Source: an uncultured bacterium
GTDB lineage: Bacteria; Hydrogenedentota; Hydrogenedentia; Hydrogenedentales; JAEUWI01
NCBI GenBank assembly: GCA_963977445.1
Contig: CAXBPH010000018.1
Span: 1-42,893, forward strand
DNA length: 42,893 bases
Direction of reading: 5' to 3'
The notes under the pieces were generated by a model. It was not told where the DNA came from. It searched no databases and saw only the letters and a program-made list of their open reading frames with translations. Of the stretch, positions 23,207-36,103 are shown in pieces. Both the position numbers and the translations under genes were made by a program. Each line of letters starts with the position of its first letter. Within the stretch, counting starts at the first letter, position 1.

Positions 23207-23617
23207 GTGCCTTCGAAAAAGCAACCCACCCTCCACGATTTACCCGCCTTGTCGCGACTGGAACAGCGCATCATGGGCCTCGTCTGGAATTTGGGCGAGT
23301 GCAGCTCCGCCGACGTCATTGCCGCGCACAATCAGGGTGAACATCTGGCCGAAACAACGATACGCACCGTGTTGGCCAACCTGCGAAAGAAGGGGTATGT
23401 CGAGTTGGTGCCGACCATAGAGCGTCAACACCGGCTCAGGCCCGCTGTGAGCCGGGAAAAAGTGGGGAAGCGGACGCTGCGCGATCTCGTATCGGGCTTT
23501 TTCGGGGGGTCACCACGTCAGGTTTTTTCTTATCTCATTAAGGAAGAAAAGTTAAGCGAAGCGGACTTGGAAGCATTACGGCAGTTAATAGAAGAACGAC
23601 AAAAAAAAGGGTCATGA
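23207..23617 (+). CDS. BlaI/MecI/CopY family repressor
   Basis: LSRLEQRIMGLVW, LAETTIRTVLANLRKKGYV, FFGGSP, LSEADLEALRQLI; GTG start with AAGAGGA RBS. Confidence 0.93.
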   Translation: MPSKKQPTLHDLPALSRLEQRIMGLVWNLGECSSADVIAAHNQGEHLAETTIRTVLANLRKKGYVELVPTIERQHRLRPAVSREKVGKRTLRDLVSGFFGGSPRQVFSYLIKEEKLSEADLEALRQLIEERQKKGS

Positions 23618-23618
23618 T

Positions 23619-26600
23619 ATGGGCGAACTCGGGATAGTACTCAATGGGGTATTTGAAGACGCACCGATACTGGGGCGCGTGTTTTTTGCGAGCCTGGAGC
23701 TCTTATTGCTCGTGCCCCTGTTGGCTATTCTCACCAAACTTCGCCTGCTGCGCACCTATCGGTTGCAGTCCCTGCTTTGGGGCTTTGTGCTGCTCAATTT
23801 ATTGAGCGGCGTATTCATGAAGGCACCCTATGACCTGACCCTCTGGGAAAACCCACCGCCTGCGCCCGCCGCCATCGCAGCGGCACCTTCTCACATTTAT
23901 CGCCCTGATCTACGTGGGTCCATGACCGACAAGTCGGTTACCCCACGCATGGCGTCGTTGCGAGAGGTGCAGGCCGGCTTCGAGGTTCCCGTTGGGGTCA
24001 CGCCCCCTGCGGTTCAGCGCTCCACAAGCCCGTCATGGCTACCGTCGGTTACGTTTATTGAGGGGCTGGGTATGGCGTGGCTCGTGGGGGCCTTATTGAT
24101 GCTTGGCCTTCTTCTGATTGAGCGATGGCGCCTGGCCTGTTTGTTGGCGCGATCCCAAAAGGCCGGGTCAGCGCTGGTCGCCCAGTATGCGCGTGAAACG
24201 AAGGCCCTTGGCACCCGTTGGAAGCCCATACTTCGGGTAACAGAAGACTTAGAGACACCGGCGATTGTGGGTGTGTTACGACCGGTCATCCTCATTCCCC
24301 ATTGGCTGGAAGAAGAGGGAAGCACCGAGCAATGGTCGTGGACCTTACGTCATGAGCTGACCCACTGGCATCACGGGGACACCCTCGGCCAGATGCTCCG
24401 TCTGGTGACCCAGGCCCTGTTCTTTTTTCACCCCTGTGTCTGGTGGGCCGGTAAGCGGTGGGAGGAAGCGGCAGAACTGGCCTGCGACCGTTCGCTGCTT
24501 CACAGTGAGCGTGACGCCGTGGGATATGCCCAGGAGCTGTGTGAGTTGCTCGGTATGATCGGAAAACGTCAACGTCCCTTGATGTCGACGGGGCTCTTCG
24601 CCAGTCGAAGCCACATAGGACGACGTATTGAAACCCTTCTCGCGGATCCGATGGCCTTGCCCGGGCGCTTGCGTCTCTGGCAGAAAGCCCTGGCGGGTCT
24701 TGTGCTGGTGGGGTTGCTGGGGGTGGAGTTACACAGTGCAAACGCCGAACTCCGCACGGTGGCCCCGTTGATCTCGGTTTCCAGCCAGGTGAGGGCTTCT
24801 ACCACGGCACCGGGAGATCGGGTTTTGCAGTTTCCCGAGGAATACTCCATGGGGACCATCTATTTGAATGGAGAACGGATCGAGGCACAGGGGACCATCC
24901 AGGTGCCCGCAGGCGCGTCGGTTTCCTTGAATGTAAACGAAGCGGGTGCCGCTGACTTGTCGCCCCTGGCGCGTTTTGGTCCCGACGATTTGTATGGCAT
25001 TAATCTCCGGGGTACCTCGGTGCAGGACGAGGAGCTGGCCAACCTGTCCGGTCTGACCGGATTGCGTGATATTGATGTGGAGCAGACACCTGTGGGTGAT
25101 GCCGGCATGGCCCACTTGGCGGAACTGGTCAATCTGGAGGTTTTGTGTGTTGATGGCACCGCCGTGGGCGACGCGGGTCTGGCCTATGTGGAAAACATGA
25201 CCAACATGCGCGACCTGGAACTGAATCGGTCGCAGGTAACCGACGCGGGACTCTATTACATTCGCAATTTGACGGGCATCACCCGTCTCGACATGTGGAT
25301 GATTGATATAACGGACGAGGGCATGTCGTATCTGGCCAATTTGCAGAATCTGAATGAATTGGGCATCGAAGATACGTTGATTACGGACGCGGGTTTACGC
25401 TATCTCGAGGGGATGACTAACCTGGATGGCATCAACCTGGAGAACAACAACATTACGGACGCGGGGCTGGCCTCTCTGGCGAAGATTCCCAACCTGACAC
25501 GCATCAGTCTGGCGGATACCTATCTGACCGATGCAGGCATGGCCTTACTGGCTAAATTTCCCCGTCTTGGTGCCGCTATCTTGCCGGTCCAGATAAGCCC
25601 GGAGGGACTCAAGGCGCTGGAAGGGACCAATCTCGGCAGTTTCCTTGCCGGTGAATACGGTGCGCGACACGAGGTCACCGTGTATGTTACGGGTGAAGGT
25701 CGCCCGCTACCGGATGCACATTTTATGCTGGTGGAAGCCATGGGCCCGGGTAATGAAGAAGTCCATGTGTATCGCACCGATGGGACGGGAAAAGCCCAGC
25801 TCTACATGCCGGATCGCCGGGCACCCTATCAGCTTCGGGCCTTTGCTGCGGGCTACGTGACGAACGAGGCGGAATGGGCCGTGCCAACGCCGTCGGTACT
25901 TCGCCTGGATCTGGAAGCTGCGTCCGTCATCGGGGGCATGGTGGTGGACACGGCCGGCAACGCCGTATCGGGCGTCTCGGTATCGGTTCCGGTCCTCGGC
26001 GGTCACAATTGGGATTCGAGTGAGCCCTTGCCCCATGCGGTATCGACAGACGAAGGGGGACGGTGGACGTGTGATGTGGCCCCCAAGGATCTGAGCGAAT
26101 TCTGGGTGTCCCTGGACCATCCGAAGTATGCGACCACGACATACAACACCGCCGATCTTTCCGTGGCGACGCTGCAGAACTCGACGGCCGTTTTGACCAT
26201 TGCGGATGCCATTGGATTGCCCGGGCTGGTGGTCGATAAATCGGATAAACCGATCTCGGGCGTGCGTATCACCGAAATGGAAGAATGGCGGCAGCGCACC
26301 CAACGGGCGACAGGTCGTGCGGCGACAACGGACCGGGAGGGGATCTTCGAGATTCGGCCGATTCGACCTGGCGAGACCCTTCTCAAACTCGATGCTTCTG
26401 GCTACGCATCCCAAACGGTATCGGTCAATGTCGTTGCCGAGATGGAGCCCATCCGAATTGTCATGAGTTCTCCGGGGGTGCTGCGGGGCAAAGCCATCAA
26501 TAAGGAAGAAGAGCCCCTGGTCGGCATAGAAGTGCGGGCAACGGGCCTTGGTGAGGACGGGGTGACACTGGGTAGCTGGCGTGGCACTACCGACAGTGAG

Positions 26601-27557
26601 GGAAAATTCCAGTGGCCGGAAGCCCCGGAAGGCACGATACATCTTTCGTTCCGCCAAGGCGATAACAATTATCATTCGGCTCAATTGGAATTCACGAACA
26701 CGAGCGAAAAAGAAGAAGTATTTACCCTGCCATTCCTGAAAGGAATCGAAGCCGGTAAGGAATTGATCGACCGATTTAATACAGCACACCAGCCCGACCA
26801 GGTCGGGGGTGTCGCCTTCGACTTCACGGTGGAAGAACGCTTTGATCCCAATGAAGGGCCTCGGGTGCGTCGCTACGATGTCGCCCGTGCGGGCGATGGA
26901 CGCTATCGGGAGGCCCTTAGCTTCGGCAATGATGGCAAGGAGAAAACGCCGTGGCACCATTCCTGGAATGGGTCCGTCTATGTGCGCCATGGCCATCCCG
27001 CTGACGAGGACAGCGAAAAAGTCGACCTGAACCGCTACGAAATTGACTCCGTAGAACATGAGGCGGCCCATCTCGTCGAACTCGACTGGCTCCTGCTCTT
27101 CGTACGGGAACATTCTCCGACGCTTCGACATAAGGTCCTTACTTTTACGGGCAATGAAGTGGCACTGGGGGATGACGAGAAAACGATGATGACCATGCGT
27201 TTTCTCGATACCCGGAGTCTAATGGTTGATCGGCTTGAATATTTTGATGCGTCAGGCGGTAAGGTACTTAGCATAGAATTCGGCGACTTTTTCTTTCATA
27301 GGGGCGTAAGTTTTCCGTTGCGCGCGAATGTTACCTACAGCTACGAGGCGATGAATGGAGAAACGTCTTTCTTAATTCATCCTTTTTCGCCCCTGGATGA
27401 CGCCGAAGATTTCACGGTGCCACGGAGTGAGAAGGACATCGTGGTTGGGCATATGAAAACGAAAAAACTTGTGGCGGTGACGAACTCCGATACGACATCG
27501 GTCGCTGTCACAAAGAATGGGGACCTCTTCGCAAACTTGCTGAAAGAGTTGGAGTAG
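23619..27557 (+). CDS. BlaR1-like M56 metallopeptidase signal transducer with LRR and carboxypeptidase-regulatory-like domains
   Basis: TM segments, HELTH zinc motif, FFHPCVWW, ELACD; roughly 24-aa LRRs of the form L..L.L..T.vtDaGl; repeated G.VVD..G.P..G beta-sandwich motifs. Confidence 0.9.
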   Translation: MGELGIVLNGVFEDAPILGRVFFASLELLLLVPLLAILTKLRLLRTYRLQSLLWGFVLLNLLSGVFMKAPYDLTLWENPPPAPAAIAAAPSHIYRPDLRGSMTDKSVTPRMASLREVQAGFEVPVGVTPPAVQRSTSPSWLPSVTFIEGLGMAWLVGALLMLGLLLIERWRLACLLARSQKAGSALVAQYARETKALGTRWKPILRVTEDLETPAIVGVLRPVILIPHWLEEEGSTEQWSWTLRHELTHWHHGDTLGQMLRLVTQALFFFHPCVWWAGKRWEEAAELACDRSLLHSERDAVGYAQELCELLGMIGKRQRPLMSTGLFASRSHIGRRIETLLADPMALPGRLRLWQKALAGLVLVGLLGVELHSANAELRTVAPLISVSSQVRASTTAPGDRVLQFPEEYSMGTIYLNGERIEAQGTIQVPAGASVSLNVNEAGAADLSPLARFGPDDLYGINLRGTSVQDEELANLSGLTGLRDIDVEQTPVGDAGMAHLAELVNLEVLCVDGTAVGDAGLAYVENMTNMRDLELNRSQVTDAGLYYIRNLTGITRLDMWMIDITDEGMSYLANLQNLNELGIEDTLITDAGLRYLEGMTNLDGINLENNNITDAGLASLAKIPNLTRISLADTYLTDAGMALLAKFPRLGAAILPVQISPEGLKALEGTNLGSFLAGEYGARHEVTVYVTGEGRPLPDAHFMLVEAMGPGNEEVHVYRTDGTGKAQLYMPDRRAPYQLRAFAAGYVTNEAEWAVPTPSVLRLDLEAASVIGGMVVDTAGNAVSGVSVSVPVLGGHNWDSSEPLPHAVSTDEGGRWTCDVAPKDLSEFWVSLDHPKYATTTYNTADLSVATLQNSTAVLTIADAIGLPGLVVDKSDKPISGVRITEMEEWRQRTQRATGRAATTDREGIFEIRPIRPGETLLKLDASGYASQTVSVNVVAEMEPIRIVMSSPGVLRGKAINKEEEPLVGIEVRATGLGEDGVTLGSWRGTTDSEGKFQWPEAPEGTIHLSFRQGDNNYHSAQLEFTNTSEKEEVFTLPFLKGIEAGKELIDRFNTAHQPDQVGGVAFDFTVEERFDPNEGPRVRRYDVARAGDGRYREALSFGNDGKEKTPWHHSWNGSVYVRHGHPADEDSEKVDLNRYEIDSVEHEAAHLVELDWLLLFVREHSPTLRHKVLTFTGNEVALGDDEKTMMTMRFLDTRSLMVDRLEYFDASGGKVLSIEFGDFFFHRGVSFPLRANVTYSYEAMNGETSFLIHPFSPLDDAEDFTVPRSEKDIVVGHMKTKKLVAVTNSDTTSVAVTKNGDLFANLLKELE

Positions 27558-27916
27558 GCCGGATAAGCGGAAAGGTTCTGGGGTCTGCTCGATTGGGGAG
27601 GCTCCCAAAAATGGGGTAGTTCAAGGCGTTGGTGGCAATGGCACGTGGAGATAACAAGTGACATGCCGCCTCCTATGGCAGAAAATGAAAGGGCAAAGTA
27701 ATGAGCAAGAAAAATAATTCTGATTCTCGAATTGTGTGGCAACGGCGATGTGCTGGGTTGTTGATTCTGGTGTGCTGGGGCATGCAGGCCCTAATTTACT
27801 GTTCGGGGCTGGGCTACGCCCAGGAGCGGACGGAGCCTGTAGATAGAGATAGCGAACGAAGCTTTCACATTCTACAAAGTTCGCCAGAGATGATGGAAAA
27901 ACTCGTACGGTGGAAA

Positions 27917-28033
27917 GAGGCGGCAGAGGCGGCAAGGGTGGCAAGGATGATAAGGACGGCAGCGACGGCAGCGACGGCAGAGACTACAGGGACTACAGGG
28001 ACTACAGGGACTACAGGGACGGCAGAGACGGGA
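27917..28033. repeat. Degenerate 9-bp tandem array (13 units, core GGGACTACA)
   Basis: gaggcggca x2, agggtggca, aggatgata, aggacggca, gcgacggca x2, gagactaca, gggactaca x3, gggacggca, gagacggga. Confidence 0.92.
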
Positions 28034-28064
28034 GTAGAGTCGGTAATAGAGCCGGTGATTACTC

Positions 28065-28632
28065 TTAACGGTCCCTTCGTTGACGATCGCGCTCTGCCAG
28101 TCGGGCGTGGGTCATTCGTTCACGGAGGCCTCCTTCCGTAACGAAGGCTTCCTCTAATTGCTTAATCTGGCGATCAAGTAGGGCGATGCTTACCTTGGTC
28201 AGTCCACAGGATGGCGTTGGCTGAGATTGCGGGGTCGTCATGCTCCACGGCCTTTTTGAAGGTTTCATAGTTCGCGTTTGGTGTGCGCAATAACTCGGAG
28301 AGGCGACGGGCGTAGGGGTGAGACTTTTCCCATTCCTCGATGTCGTGGGTGCGTAGGAAATCGCGATAGTCTTCCAGGAGCTCGCCGAGGCTTGCTTTGG
28401 CTACGTTGGTGAGTTTGATTTCCATTTCCTTGGAGGTGCCGGAGGCCATGCTGCCCTCGGCGATATTTTGTTTTCCGGAGCGGGCCGCCTGGACCATTTG
28501 GTCGACTGTGCGGTCGCGGCGCTGGAAATGGCGTGCGCAGAAGCGGACCGTGGCGTCGTAGACGATTTCGGCGCGTTGGTAGGAGAGGAGTTTCTGGTAG
28601 CCGCCGTGGGTTGGGATAAAGCCTTTGGTCAT
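28065..28632 (-). pseudogene. Four-helix-bundle (23S rRNA IVP/Avd-like) protein with suffix domain, interrupted by a +1 frameshift near 28205
   Basis: GFIPTHGGYQKLLSYQRAEIVYDAT, RTVDQMVQAARSGKQNIAEGS, LTNVAKASLGELLEDYRDFL; the expected C-terminus [28 protein letters not shown] lies in the adjacent frame (ORF 28065-28268). Confidence 0.88.
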
Positions 28633-28652
28633 GTGAGGTTCCTGTGCGTTTT

Positions 28653-28697
28653 CAGGGACTACAGGGACTACAGGGACTACAGGGACTACAGGGACTA
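28653..28697. repeat. Perfect tandem array (CAGGGACTA)x5
   Basis: Five exact copies, 20 nt upstream of the four-helix-bundle ATG. Confidence 0.97.
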
Positions 28698-28771
28698 GCC
28701 AATCTTATTGGACATAGTCAAGATTTGCCAAGGCCCTCAAGAAAACTTGCGGTACACGCCGATTTTCATCG

Positions 28772-28795
28772 GTCTCTGCTGTCTCTGTAGTCCCT
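28772..28795. repeat. Inverted copy of the 9-bp repeat region
   Basis: Reverse complement AGGGACTACAGAGACAGCAGAGAC matches 28006-28029 AGGGACTACAGGGACGGCAGAGAC at 22/24 positions. Confidence 0.85.
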
Positions 28796-28805
28796 CAAAA
28801 AAACC

Positions 28806-30299
28806 TTAGGCCAAAATATCCCTGATCACGTGGCCGTGCACGTCGGTCAGGCGTCGCTCAATACCGTTGTGGTAAAAGCTGAGCCGTTCGTGGTCCAGGC
28901 CGAGCAGGTGCAAGATCGTAGCGTGAAAATCGTAGATGGTCGCCACATTCTCTACGGCCTGATAACCAAACTCGTCGGTAGCGCCATAGCTATAGCCCGG
29001 CTTCACCCCGGCGCCCGTCATCCACACGGTAAAGCCGGCCGGGTTGTGATCGCGGCCACTGGCACCCTTCTGGAAGGTGGGCATGCGACCGAATTCGGTG
29101 GTCCACACGATAAGGGTGTCTTCCAACAAACCCCGGGCCCGCATGTCCTTAATCATGCCCGCTGCCGGTCCGTCGAGGATGGGCGCGTGCACGTCGTATT
29201 GCTCTTTCAGGCTCTTGTGTCCGTCCCAGTTACCCACGCCCTCGCCCATGGCGTAGGCCCCATTAAATAGTTGGACGAATCGCGTGCCCTTTTCAATGAG
29301 TCGGCGTGCGAGGAGGCAGTTCTTGCCGAAGCCCGCCTTGGTTTCGTTGGGGTCGTCGATGCAATAGAGTTTGCGTGTTTCCGGGCTCTCGTTGCCGAAG
29401 TCGCTCATGGAGGCAGCCTTGAGCTGCATCTTCGCGGCAAGCTCGTAGGAGGATATGCGCGCGCTGAGCTCTGTGTCACCAGGGAAACGTTCGAGATGCT
29501 TGTCGTTCAGGAATTTCAGGAAATCCCGCGTCGCCCGTTCGTCGCCGTCTTTGATGTAGCCCGGCGTGGCGAGATTGGGTATGGGTTTCTGCGTATTAAA
29601 TGGCACGCCCTGGAACACCGCAGGGAGAAATCCTGAGGCCCAGTTGTTCGGTCCCGACTGGGGCACGCCACGGGGGTCGGGAATCGCCACGAAGGCCGGC
29701 AGGTCGTTGGCCTCGCTGCCGAGGGCGTAGGAGGCCCACGCGCCCATGCTGGGGAAGCCGTCGAGGGTGAAGCCCGTGCTCATCTGATTTTCCGCCGGAC
29801 CGTGGGTGTTGCTCTTGGCCGTCATGGAGTGGATGAAGGTGTAGTCGTCCGCCATGGCCGCCAAGTTGGGCAGCATGTCGGAAACCATCTTGCCCGATTC
29901 GCCCCGGGGTTTGAAATCCCAGTAGCTCTTGGTCAGGTTGCCCTGTTCACCCTGGAAGGTGACGAGCTTGTCGCTACCCGGCATGGGTTGGCCGTGGCGC
30001 TTGATGAGCTCGGGCTTGTAGTCCCACGTGTCCACATGGGAGCAGGCACCGGAACAGAAAATGACGAGGACGTTCTTTGCCTTTGGCGTAAACTGGGCGG
30101 CCCGTGCGGCGAGGGGAGCCGAAGGTTGAATTATAGGGCGAATGGGGCCCAGCTCGGAGGCGGCTGCCTTGCCCATCAGGCCTTGCTCGGCGAGGAGTGC
30201 AGAAAGGGCGATGCCGCCCAAGCCCGCGCCCGCGCTCTGTAGGAAGCCGCGGCGGTTTAGAAGGTGCTGTCCATCGGGATAAATTTCTTCAGGGGTCAT
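28806..30299 (-). CDS. DUF1501 domain protein
   Basis: Tat-like NRRGFL leader, [68 protein letters not shown]. Confidence 0.93.
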
Positions 30300-30480
30300 A
30301 CTATCTCTCGCTCTATCAGGGCCATGATTTAGCTCTAGGGTACCAGATAGACCCCCTGCGGGGCACATGGGGTCTGGCGGTGCGCAGGGGCTGAATTTAC
30401 GTAGCGTTTTCCGGAAGCGGAAATGACTGAGCGGCCGCTAGGTATACGAGATGACGATTGCTCTCGACCTCAAAAAACTT

Positions 30481-30556
30481 ACCACGAATAAACACGAATG
30501 TACACGAATAGGGAGTGGGATGGAGGTGTACGAATGTGCACGAATTGACACGAATA
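30481..30556. repeat. 10-bp-period CACGAAT repeats (two blocks of three)
   Basis: accacgaata aacacgaatg tacacgaata ... tgtacgaatg tgcacgaatt gacacgaata. Confidence 0.85.
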
Positions 30557-30613
30557 CGGAGGGGACGGGAAGTGCGGATTGTGTTCGTCGCGAATTGGGC
30601 GCCAGTTTCTTCC

Positions 30614-30696
30614 GGCCCGAAGGGCCAGCGCAGCATAGCCCTGGGCAACGCCCAGGGTTAATCGTATCGAAACGTATATAGCCCTGAAAGGGCGGC
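30614..30696. repeat. REP-like multi-hairpin element
   Basis: GGCCC-GAA-GGGCC, CCCTGGGC-AAC-GCCCAGGG, GCCCT-GAA-AGGGC; 17-bp inverted copy at 40508-40524. Confidence 0.75.
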
Positions 30697-30787
30697 GCGA
30701 ATCGAAATTGTTTGGCTTTCTGCATTTCGCGGGTCCCGTTACGGGGTGGACTCTACGTTGCCGTAGGCGTGTTTGAGTGTATGCCAG

Positions 30788-32407
30788 TTAGTCATTTTCA
30801 CTCTTCACGCTAACTAGACCGGTCACCTCATCTGACGATATCAAACGTCTAATGATTTGGCTTCCGGGGCATCCTTTGAAATCGAGATGAATCAGATGAT
30901 TTCCCGTCTTTTCCTGCAAGACTCTTAAGATCTCTTCGCGGTTTTTGAGAAGAACACGTGTTGCTATCAATCGAATCGGGGTCTCCACTGTTTTTTCGAA
31001 AAAGCGGAAGCCTTTGAAGTGCTGTAGTTCGACCATAACTTGAAAGGGTTCACCCTTGTTTATGAATACTGGCAGATTGAGGAACGCCGCATCGACATTG
31101 ACCGCTCCCGATATACTGAAATTATCGCTCTGTGTCAAATGTTCCCCTTTTACACATAAATCAAATAAATCCGAGACCCCAGACGCTTCCTCATCACTTA
31201 ACTCTCGAAACAATGGATTCAAGTGTAATCGCCTGGCCACACTTCTAGCCTTATTTAGGAATTCGACAAACTCCAAGAGCTCAGCCCCTCCCGACGTCAT
31301 GCCTGTTGCTCTGGCCGAGAATAGGCGTTTTCCTTCATGTCGACATTCAACCATGAGTGTTTTTCCACGGGAGAGTGAACGGGCGAGCCCCTCGATTTGG
31401 TCGAAGTGGGGAAGGTGAAGCAACGGCTTACCATACCACTTGTCTACTGAGAACCCCATCTCTGGAGTTGAGGAGTCTCCAGAGAGGTCCAGCGCTTGCT
31501 CCGATGATAATTCGAGCGGAAAACTAGGATCGGCCAGTGCAAACGTGAAGCGGCTCCTGCCCGCAGTGATCCGCGCGGCAATGGGGTCTATTCGCACTTC
31601 CTCGAACACTGGTTCTTCATCGACCTTGGTACAACTCAGTGATGCGAACACGTTCAGGGCCGTGCCGATATGTAGTTGGACTTTCTCGGCATCCTGCCAG
31701 ATGTGGTCGAATATAGGAGAGCCGGAAATTGAAACATCCGACGGACTGAACTCAACGGACCTCCCCCCTTCGATCAGGCTATCAATCTTGATGGTAACTT
31801 CCTCTGGATTCCCTGGGAATGAAAATTGAATCGGGACGTCCTCAATCGCATGGAACGTGGTATGGGAGTTTTGCTCAGAAACTACCATAGTTGCGCGAAA
31901 ACGTGGGTCTAGCACCTCGAACCTTCTTTGTTCTTCCTTGATCAAGTCTTGAGGTGTTAGCGGGCGCGCTAGTTTTGCAAACGCAACTTTCCTTCGAGGT
32001 GTGAGCGATTGAGATAGCGGGATGCGAATCTTCCAGCGACTATTTGCCTTCTGGCATGTATTGGAAGAAACGCTCTCCCAAATGAGTGTCTTGTCTTTCG
32101 GATGGTAGAGGACGACTAATATAGGCAAAGTGTGGCCGATCCAATAATCGTGGTGAGTTTGATCAAACCGAAATACGACTGCGCCCTTGGACGTTTCTTT
32201 CCAATAGCTCGCACCAGCCTTGACTTGGACACCAAGAAGTCTGCCTGTTGGATTGCCTGAATTGCATTCCTCGACAATTAAGTCTATGCCCATGTCGCTT
32301 TCAAGTTGAGGGCGCTTTATCCATTTCATTCTCAGGAAGACACCCTCAACGGCATTCATTCCCAAGTGTTCCGTTGGGGAGTATCTGGAAGTTTTTTTTG
32401 GCATCAC
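30788..32407 (-). CDS. DUF4365-like (PD-(D/E)xK-type) N-terminal domain protein with unknown C-terminus
   Basis: RPQLESDMGIDLIVE...GRLLGVQVKAG...HHDYWIGHTLPILVVLY; visibly more AT-rich than neighbouring genes. Confidence 0.8.
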   Translation of the reverse strand: MMPKKTSRYSPTEHLGMNAVEGVFLRMKWIKRPQLESDMGIDLIVEECNSGNPTGRLLGVQVKAGASYWKETSKGAVVFRFDQTHHDYWIGHTLPILVVLYHPKDKTLIWESVSSNTCQKANSRWKIRIPLSQSLTPRRKVAFAKLARPLTPQDLIKEEQRRFEVLDPRFRATMVVSEQNSHTTFHAIEDVPIQFSFPGNPEEVTIKIDSLIEGGRSVEFSPSDVSISGSPIFDHIWQDAEKVQLHIGTALNVFASLSCTKVDEEPVFEEVRIDPIAARITAGRSRFTFALADPSFPLELSSEQALDLSGDSSTPEMGFSVDKWYGKPLLHLPHFDQIEGLARSLSRGKTLMVECRHEGKRLFSARATGMTSGGAELLEFVEFLNKARSVARRLHLNPLFRELSDEEASGVSDLFDLCVKGEHLTQSDNFSISGAVNVDAAFLNLPVFINKGEPFQVMVELQHFKGFRFFEKTVETPIRLIATRVLLKNREEILRVLQEKTGNHLIHLDFKGCPGSQIIRRLISSDEVTGLVSVKSEND

Positions 32408-35950: not shown

Positions 35951-36103
35951 GGGGTACTGTCCTCTTACTTCGTCAACACGCGCCTTACGCAGTCTTAGCA
36001 TAATGACAAACGGGGGGGGAAAGGTCAAATGCAGTTGACGGTGGGCAGTTGACAGTTGACGGACATCAGCGTGAGGACATAGGTTGACAAAAGAGACCGG
36101 AAG

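What the first reader, a model, noticed from the sequence alone, without database searches (positions are those of the whole stretch)
27917..28795. Four-helix-bundle (IVP/Avd-like) gene bracketed by 9-bp arrays plus a complementary arm: candidate RNA-structured cassette
Seen: on the coding (minus) strand the order is a 24-nt arm AGGGACTACAGAGACAGCAGAGAC, then (TAGTCCCTG)x5, 20 nt, the ORF, and a second array containing GTCTCTGCCGTCCCTGTAGTCCCT. The arm pairs best with the downstream array (22/24 on DNA), which would loop out the whole ORF. It can alternatively pair with the array beside the start codon. Known: this family includes ORFs carried in the excised stem-loop of 23S rRNA intervening sequences and is related to Avd, the RNA-binding accessory protein of diversity-generating retroelements. 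No rRNA gene or reverse transcriptase is present here. Inference: a self-contained mobile or processed unit, either an mRNA intervening sequence or a pairing switch in which the protein binds its own repeats.
Basis: partly seen in the sequence, partly recalled or inferred. Interest (0 to 1): 0.82.

Follow-up and report, generated by a model that had tools for sequence, protein, structure and literature searches.

The report
Helix-bundle gene with cognate dispersed repeats
A small, here broken, gene of an uncharacterised helical-bundle family sits inside a paired 9-base repeat that is also scattered through the genome, and each lineage of the gene goes with its own version of the repeat, which points to an undescribed partnership between a protein and a spreading repeat rather than to a one-off RNA cassette.

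Summary
The arm, both 9-bp arrays and the gene are real. This genome holds 22 arrays of the same type, mostly 4-unit arms in intergenic DNA, some as inverted doublets of fixed order. Its two paralogs each have their own dispersed repeat family (27 and 22 arrays). Repeat type follows the protein tree, not the host (4 changes against at least 10 in within-genome shuffles). In six congeners the dominant sub-type matched the resident gene lineage, as predicted beforehand. Arm-then-array order is conserved in homologs from many phyla, but no pairing covariation or G·U bias supports RNA excision; only this locus's equilibrium fold favours looping out. The fold is Avd/IVP-like. No reverse transcriptase was found in the genome, and no RAYT lies beside the repeats. 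Best reading: a RAYT/REPIN-like partnership in which an Avd-fold protein recognises its own repeat and maintains or spreads it; binding and mobility are inferred. The scan noted gene-plus-nonamer units on other DNA before; I saw no note of the genome-wide lineage match.

The parts
28772..28800 (-). 5' arm: three GAC-strand 9-bp units (28772-28795) with a T-rich outer end, starting 10 nt after the DUF1501 stop codon
   Evidence: similar arm beside the orthologous gene in G004 and G008 and at the empty sites in G003 and G007
28702..28731 (-). sigma-70-like promoter match (9 of 12) between arm and upstream array; consensus match only
   Evidence: 3 sites in 1.5 kb against 0.7 in shuffles; not clearly conserved in G008
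28653..28697 (-). upstream array of five identical GTC-strand 9-bp units, ending 20 nt before the ATG; with the arm it forms an inverted doublet
28065..28632 (-). four-helix-bundle + suffix gene (TIGR02436 + TIGR04258), broken by one extra base near 28206; annotated ORF 28174-28632 runs off frame after codon 142
   Evidence: intact 199-aa ortholog in G004 (L120); model pLDDT 92.8, best fold match 2GSC
27916..28031 (-). downstream array, about 9 good units (27952-28029) decaying to about 27916; direct repeat of the upstream array, inverted to the arm
27701..28141 (+). small convergent gene, 92 aa in G003 and G007; here its 3' end runs through the array into a repeat-encoded tail (146 aa)
28806..30368 (-). 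DUF1501 host gene whose 3' intergenic space holds the element (start may be 30299)
   Evidence: PF07394, E 2e-141; orthologs in 7 of 8 congeners

Best explanation
A protein-repeat partnership that works like RAYT/REPIN but uses an Avd/IVP-fold protein. The repeat unit is an arm of usually four GTC-tagged hexa/heptamers at a 9-bp period (33 bp) with free spacer bases. Arms lie in intergenic DNA close to gene ends, singly or as inverted doublets in the order GAC-strand arm, gap, GTC-strand arm. The gene sits in or beside such doublets. SHOWN: layout, dispersal, fixed order, and the match between gene lineage and repeat type. INFERRED: an oligomer of the protein reads the tagged units of its own repeat type, one unit per subunit, as single-stranded nucleic acid or an interrupted hairpin. 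This recognition keeps the repeat family alive and lets new copies arise at other intergenic sites. When a new gene lineage arrives, its repeat type spreads and the old one decays. UNKNOWN: the chemistry of spread (a recruited host enzyme or a catalytic site in the bundle). The window's copy is probably a decaying member (frameshift, long slipped arrays).
For: Own genome: 3 TIGR04258 genes and 3 period-9 families (22, 27, 22 arrays; the fourth type 0), each matching the type beside one paralog. Tree of the N-terminal core: 8 type changes over 105 labelled rows of 139, against a minimum of 36 in 300 shuffles. In relatives, 4 changes over 44 rows against a minimum of 10 in 500 within-genome shuffles. 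Sub-type test predicted beforehand, G-type:H-type matches: G000 30:4, G004 419:32, G008 269:10 (window's gene lineage); G001 65:258, G003 7:157, G007 0:143 (sister lineage); 6 of 6. Arrays occur in 29 of 29 order-level genomes with the gene and 5 of 12 without; with 5 or more matches, 24 of 29 and 3 of 12. Family of G041: 26 of 40 and 5 of 21, p = 0.003; with 10 or more, 18 of 40 and 2 of 21. 65 of 71 arrays lie outside crude gene calls; order GAC-then-GTC in 13 of 13 pairs; partner on the inner side for 30 of 61 short arms, on the outer side for 0 of 61. Units within a 4-unit arm are no more alike than between arms (0.51-0.58 against 0.57-0.64), and arms match in register above unit-shuffled controls (6, 0 and 6 of 1000). 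Presence at orthologous sites is patchy. Fold: 2GSC Z 15.3, Avd 8UB7 Z 11.6.
Against: No binding or movement was observed. No precise insertion junction or target duplication could be seen, because the nearest relatives are about 13% or more divergent. The genome gave no RVT_1 match, and the protein has no known nuclease fold. G002, G006 and G040 carry many arrays with no intact gene found (fragmented assemblies, G002 has a fragment); G005 has H-type arrays with no gene of that clade found. 14 of 40 gene-bearing genomes in the G041 family had no match to the pattern used, which omits the palindromic type. Match counts overlap and include each gene's own flanks, which were not subtracted; genomes are not independent. 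The type labels were defined by me after seeing the data, and they break down in the Bacteroidota sub-clade and for L141/L144. Unlike RAYT, the gene's nearest relatives outside the genus are in other phyla.
Confidence: 0.55

Rival explanations
1. Host-serving regulator: the protein is a sequence-specific RNA- or DNA-binding oligomer (TRAP-like, recalled analogy) that autoregulates through the array before its start codon and controls neighbouring transcripts through arms at gene ends. It has no part in spreading them.
For: Motif bases are fixed and spacers free, without covariation. 26 of 30 arms within 40 nt of a gene end face it with their outer side, 20 of them at a stop codon. A promoter-like site lies directly before the upstream array. 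Many polar and basic residues are invariant. This reading also predicts the lineage match.
Against: Sites turn over between congeners and switch type at the same site. Upstream neighbours of homologs fall into 65 clusters among 72 flanks. Several paralogs with separate repeat sets per genome, and up to hundreds of matches, are hard to explain as a regulon. It does not explain how new sites arise.
Confidence: 0.2
2. One reading: an mRNA intervening sequence or pairing switch, in which the arm pairs with the downstream array and the gene is looped out and cut (RNase III-type), as in 23S rRNA IVSs.
For: Arm/downstream duplex -40.0 against -32.5 kcal/mol for the upstream array; pairing probability 0.91 in the equilibrium fold. 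An upstream arm plus a downstream array is present in 34 of 56 scored loci of this type, and in 11 of them there is no upstream partner array. The fold family is that of IVS proteins.
Against: No preference across homologs (15:8, p = 0.48) and no G·U excess (47:62). No covariation between partner arms. 22 of 56 loci lack the arm or the downstream array, and the G008 ortholog has no downstream array. The whole region folds at only z = -1.7. The gene is followed by a convergent gene, so no downstream cistron is released. Most repeats have no gene inside.
Confidence: 0.12
3. Passive hitch-hiking: the repeats are slippage-prone or REP-like sequences spread by an unrelated factor, and the gene is carried between them by recombination, so types co-travel without recognition.
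For: Long homogeneous arrays in G004 and G008 are clearly slipped. These intergenic spaces hold other repeat families too. Direct arrays flank the gene and the empty sites keep an arm plus a remnant. Some genomes have arrays and no gene found.
Against: Typical stand-alone arms are four non-identical units, not slippage products. 0 of 71 arrays lie within 1.5 kb of any of 16 Y1_Tnp matches. Genome-wide sub-type follows the resident gene lineage even against host relatedness.
Confidence: 0.13

Closest known systems
REPIN-RAYT systems (PMC3337134, first of three parts read; 10.1101/2022.05.22.493013, passages)
   Same: Short extragenic inverted doublets of about 80-150 bp plus singlets; several sequence groups per genome, each tied to one divergent single-copy gene that is itself flanked by its group; patchy among close relatives.
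   Different: The partner is an Avd/IVP-fold helical protein, not a Y1 HUH transposase. Arms are four tandem 9-bp units, not short palindromes. Partner arms are imperfectly complementary at spacer bases. Only one doublet order was seen. The gene has close relatives across phyla.
ORF-bearing 23S rRNA intervening sequences, S23p / PF05635 / TIGR02436 (PMC4990558, abstract and outline; PDB 2GSC, 2RLD)
   Same: Same fold family; ORF lies between inverted sequences; ORF decay occurs (described for Coxiella S23p).
   Different: Not in an rRNA gene; carries the TIGR04258 suffix; borders are a dispersed repeat family; no evidence of excision.
Avd of diversity-generating retroelements (PMC6182149 and PMC10053308, passages; PDB 4DWL, 8UB7)
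   Same: Structural match (Z 10.6-11.6); Avd is a positively charged pentamer that works with a structured RNA.
   Different: No reverse transcriptase match in the genome; two extra helical inserts or extensions; associated with tandem-unit repeats. A TR/VR pair was not searched for.
TIGR04258 four helix bundle suffix domain-containing proteins (NCBIfam)
   Same: The window's gene is a frameshifted member.
   Different: The family has a name but no function or repeat partner in the papers I could search.

Membership tests
TIGR02436 / TIGR04258 four-helix-bundle-suffix proteins | HMM scores over curated cut-offs | tested here: met
   33.1 bits (cut-off 24) and 56 bits (cut-off 40), in two frames; PF05635 29.8 bits is under its 33.8 cut-off
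TIGR02436 / TIGR04258 four-helix-bundle-suffix proteins | intact reading frame | tested here: not met
   one extra base near 28206 in this assembly; real mutation or assembly error not resolved
Avd/IVP fold | four-helix bundle like 2GSC / Avd | tested here: met
   model of the G004 ortholog: 2GSC Z 15.3, rmsd 1.4 over 109 residues; 2RLD 12.5; 8UB7 11.6; unrelated bundles reach 11.4; Foldseek top hit 2GSC, E 0.011
Avd/IVP fold | homopentameric ring | not testable with these tools
   the complex tool takes at most four copies
REPIN-RAYT | extragenic inverted doublets in several groups, each tied to one gene | tested here: met
REPIN-RAYT | linked gene is a Y1 HUH (RAYT) transposase | tested here: not met
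   linked gene is TIGR04258; 0 of 71 arrays within 1.5 kb of 16 PF01797 matches
REPIN-RAYT | each arm is a short palindromic REP | tested here: not met
   arms are tandem 9-bp units; only the fourth type, absent from this genome, has palindromic units
REPIN-RAYT | excision or insertion of doublets as units | tested here: inconclusive
   patchy presence at 7 orthologous sites, no precise junctions
REPIN-RAYT | mostly vertical inheritance of the gene | tested here: inconclusive
   shared with G004 and G008; no phage match and 1 plasmid-collection record; but 79-80% identical relatives in other phyla
23S rRNA intervening sequence | located inside an rRNA gene | tested here: not met
   no Rfam match in the window; flanked by protein genes
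23S rRNA intervening sequence | terminal stem under selection for RNA pairing | tested here: not met
   no G·U excess, no partner preference, no covariation; the single-locus fold is compatible with a stem
23S rRNA intervening sequence | RNase III excision from the transcript | not testable with these tools
   needs RNA data or an assay
Diversity-generating retroelement | reverse transcriptase gene | tested here: not met
   no PF00078 match in the 94%-complete genome
Diversity-generating retroelement | TR/VR pair | not tested
   no dedicated search; the repeat scan of 26000-31000 showed no long two-copy repeat

The most novel reading that the evidence does not exclude
A class of non-autonomous bacterial mobile repeat whose trans-acting factor is an Avd-fold protein with no known nuclease or polymerase domain. 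Each clade reads its own 9-bp code and copies 4-unit doublets to new intergenic sites, either through a new catalytic site formed by the invariant residues (for example R51, E59, E84, D88, D91, N139 of L120) or by recruiting a host enzyme. It would suggest an ancestral role for the fold that DGRs and rRNA intervening sequences also use.
Probability: 0.3. Interest if true: 0.88.

Novelty: new variant of a known kind. Interest (0 to 1): 0.7.

Why it matters
TIGR04258 and the wider IVP/Avd family are common and, outside DGRs, have no function in the papers I could search. A natural code of matched protein clades and 9-bp repeat types gives a direct test: swap proteins and repeats in binding and mobility assays. 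If the protein spreads the repeats, persistent gene-repeat partnerships are not confined to RAYT transposases, and a fold known as an RNA helper has a role in mobile DNA. A programmable small repeat-reading oligomer could also be a tool.

Tried and rejected
RNA evidence: no RNA holder listed. Two small-share DNA runs laid on the region did not cover the frameshift and gave no usable joint. Complex prediction of four copies: no answer. Sequence search of solved structures: nothing significant with one protein; 2GSC only at E 0.98 with the alignment. ESM Atlas returned clusters named four helix bundle or hypothetical. The reversed-sequence control is invalid for the window's unit because GTCCCTG reads the same backwards; I used other periods instead. 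RAYT as partner: rejected. DGR: no RT. Promoter inside the loop as a conserved feature: inconclusive. Target-site duplications: relatives too divergent. Rows dropped: one search scored 99 of 110 loci (3 without an N-terminal hit, 8 with short flanks); one search scored 56 of 60 loci already labelled by their repeats, so presence there is circular and only order and pairing count; the trees left out redundant or non-gene loci, 2 short hits and duplicate L154, and 34 of 139 rows had no label. Literature: 10 searches found no description of this gene-repeat link; most subscription papers are not covered and no supplements were read.

Full report
OBSERVATION. On the minus strand the DUF1501 gene (PF07394) stops at 28806. 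A three-unit arm follows at 28795-28772, then five identical 9-bp units at 28697-28653, 20 nt, and the ATG at 28632. A second array has its core at 28029-27952 and decays to about 27916. The arm is 22/24 complementary to the downstream array and 20/24 to the upstream one. The 152-aa ORF hits TIGR02436 over its cut-off, but the TIGR04258 suffix is in another frame (56 bits, cut-off 40). Against the intact 199-aa ortholog in G004 there is one extra base just after codon 142. Whether this is real or an assembly error is open; 8 of 76 homologs with room also have short ORFs. The downstream array lies in the 3' end of a small convergent gene that is 92 aa in G003 and G007 and has gained a repeat-encoded tail here.

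PROTEIN. An AlphaFold model of the G004 ortholog (93-row alignment, pLDDT 92.8) matches 2GSC best (Z 15.3, rmsd 1.4 over 109 residues), then 2RLD (12.5) and Avd in the DGR complex 8UB7 (11.6) and 4DWL (10.6). Unrelated bundles reach 11.4, so only the top match stands clear (Foldseek agrees). Many polar residues are invariant across 122 proteins. No RVT_1 match was found in the genome, and no Rfam family in the window. The protein has no match in 50,697 phage records and one in 72,556 plasmid records.

LAYOUT IN HOMOLOGS. Of 99 scored loci, 82 have a period-9 GAC or GTC array within 300 nt. An upstream GAC array is present in 59 of 99 against 10 of 432 control windows. Among 56 loci of the window's type, the GAC arm precedes the GTC array in 35 of 35 upstream and 11 of 11 downstream cases, and the window's exact layout is the commonest (15 of 56). 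Neighbouring genes differ: 65 clusters among 72 upstream flanks. In the genus, G004 has the gene at the same site. G003 and G007, the nearest relatives (86-87% in DUF1501), lack it but keep an arm and a remnant. G008 has the ortholog, with arm and upstream array, after the DUF1553 gene instead. G001, G002 and G006 have another gene there.

TEST OF THE EXCISION IDEA. For: in the equilibrium fold of the read-through RNA the arm pairs with the downstream array (0.91 against 0.00), and 34 of 56 loci could form such a stem. Against: in 23 loci with both arrays the split is 15:8 (p = 0.48); G·U does not outnumber A·C (47:52 for the upstream hairpin, 47:62 for the long stem); both mismatches here are A·C. 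Partner arms in this genome are no more complementary than shuffled partners (spacer identity 0.50/0.49, 0.62/0.59, 0.32/0.34; few pairs, one counted twice in two families). So the motif is conserved as sequence, not as a perfect stem.

THE REPEAT IS A DISPERSED FAMILY WITH A MATCHING GENE. The genome has three TIGR04258 genes and three period-9 families: GTC-N-Y-T 22 arrays, GTC-B-Y-A 27, GTC-CAY 22, and none of the palindromic GTC-N-GA type; other periods give 0-1. Each family is the type found beside one paralog. 65 of 71 arrays are outside my crude gene calls. The modal size is four units. Paired arms are in the order GAC-then-GTC in 13 of 13 cases, and an inverted partner lies on the inner side of 30 of 61 short arms and on the outer side of none; the shortest doublets have 10-12 nt gaps. 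Units within an arm differ as much as between arms, which argues against slippage, and arms match each other in register above unit-shuffled controls. On a FastTree tree of the N-terminal core, type changes 8 times over 105 labelled rows (shuffles at least 36); among relatives 4 times over 44 rows against at least 10 in within-genome shuffles. Exceptions are a Bacteroidota sub-clade and L141/L144.

CO-OCCURRENCE. Arrays of any type occur in 29 of 29 order-level genomes with the gene and 5 of 12 without, and in 26 of 40 against 5 of 21 in the family of G041. These counts include each gene's own flanks, and kin are not independent; higher thresholds keep the contrast (24 of 29 and 3 of 12; 18 of 40 and 2 of 21). 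A finer test was set before running it. The window's gene lineage has G at unit position 7, the sister lineage mostly T. G000, G004 and G008 are G-type dominant (30:4, 419:32, 269:10) and G001, G003 and G007 H-type dominant (65:258, 7:157, 0:143). G003 and G007 thus differ from their nearest relative and agree with their own gene. G002 and G006 (G-type) and G005 (H-type) have arrays with no intact gene of this clade found. At seven orthologous sites stand-alone arms were patchy, and one site carries different sub-types in G000 and in G003/G007; several comparisons had only one anchor.

MECHANISM. Shown: layout, dispersal, polarity, lineage match. Inferred: the protein recognises its own unit. 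The four-unit arm with free spacers suits an oligomer reading one unit per subunit; Avd is a positively charged pentamer (PMC6182149, passages). Inferred further: recognition is what maintains and spreads the arms, as proposed for RAYT and REPINs, where divergent single-copy genes each go with one repeat population (PMC3337134, first part; 10.1101/2022.05.22.493013, passages). I put this at 0.55, a purely regulatory role at 0.2, hitch-hiking at 0.13 and RNA excision at 0.12. The chemistry of spread is unknown; none of 71 arrays lies near a Y1 transposase.

COMPARISON AND NOVELTY. It works like REPIN-RAYT but fails two defining features (enzyme, palindromic REP). It shares the fold with IVS proteins (PMC4990558, abstract; PMC10053308, passages) and Avd but is in no rRNA gene and has no RT. 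Ten literature searches found no description of the link; coverage is limited and no supplements were read. Earlier notes of this scan reported gene-plus-nonamer units on other DNA, one favouring binding sites over hairpin borders; they are leads, not support. Verdict: real, new variant of a known kind, interest 0.70.

Noticed in passing
G000 C9:47315, C274:153, C64:7174, C73:15745 (GxxExxY genes): Four of six GxxExxY (TIGR04256) genes appear, by eye, to be flanked by their own short tandem or inverted repeats, hinting that other small gene families have similar repeat partners.
   Followed up: partly
window 30483-30555: A 10-bp-period repeat upstream of DUF1501; 10 arrays of this kind in the genome, some as inverted pairs. 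Partner gene not identified.
   Followed up: partly
window 30788-32407: A DUF4365 gene sits between DUF1553 and DUF1501; congeners have other genes or none there, so this is a variable insertion site.
   Followed up: partly
window 36032-36060: A 7-bp-period repeat in the intergenic space before the DUF1553 gene; a similar heptamer lies in the G003 empty site.
   Followed up: no
window 23207-27557: BlaI-type repressor plus a 1312-aa BlaR1/M56 protein with LRR and carboxypeptidase-regulatory-like domains, syntenic in G003 and G004.
   Followed up: no
window 27701-27977 (+): Small conserved gene of no known family after the BlaR1-like gene; its tail is replaced by repeat-encoded sequence here and apparently in G004.
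   Followed up: partly
L091, L092, L100, L106, L108: Longer paralogs end in a Cys-x2-Cys zinc-ribbon-like tail (topoisomerase C4 label recalled, not tested) and mostly go with the palindromic repeat type.
   Followed up: no
G000 C280:585 and L102, L103, L005, L012, L033: Repeat arms lie inside the four-helix-bundle ORFs themselves, as linker inserts or C-terminal tails read in frame.
   Followed up: partly
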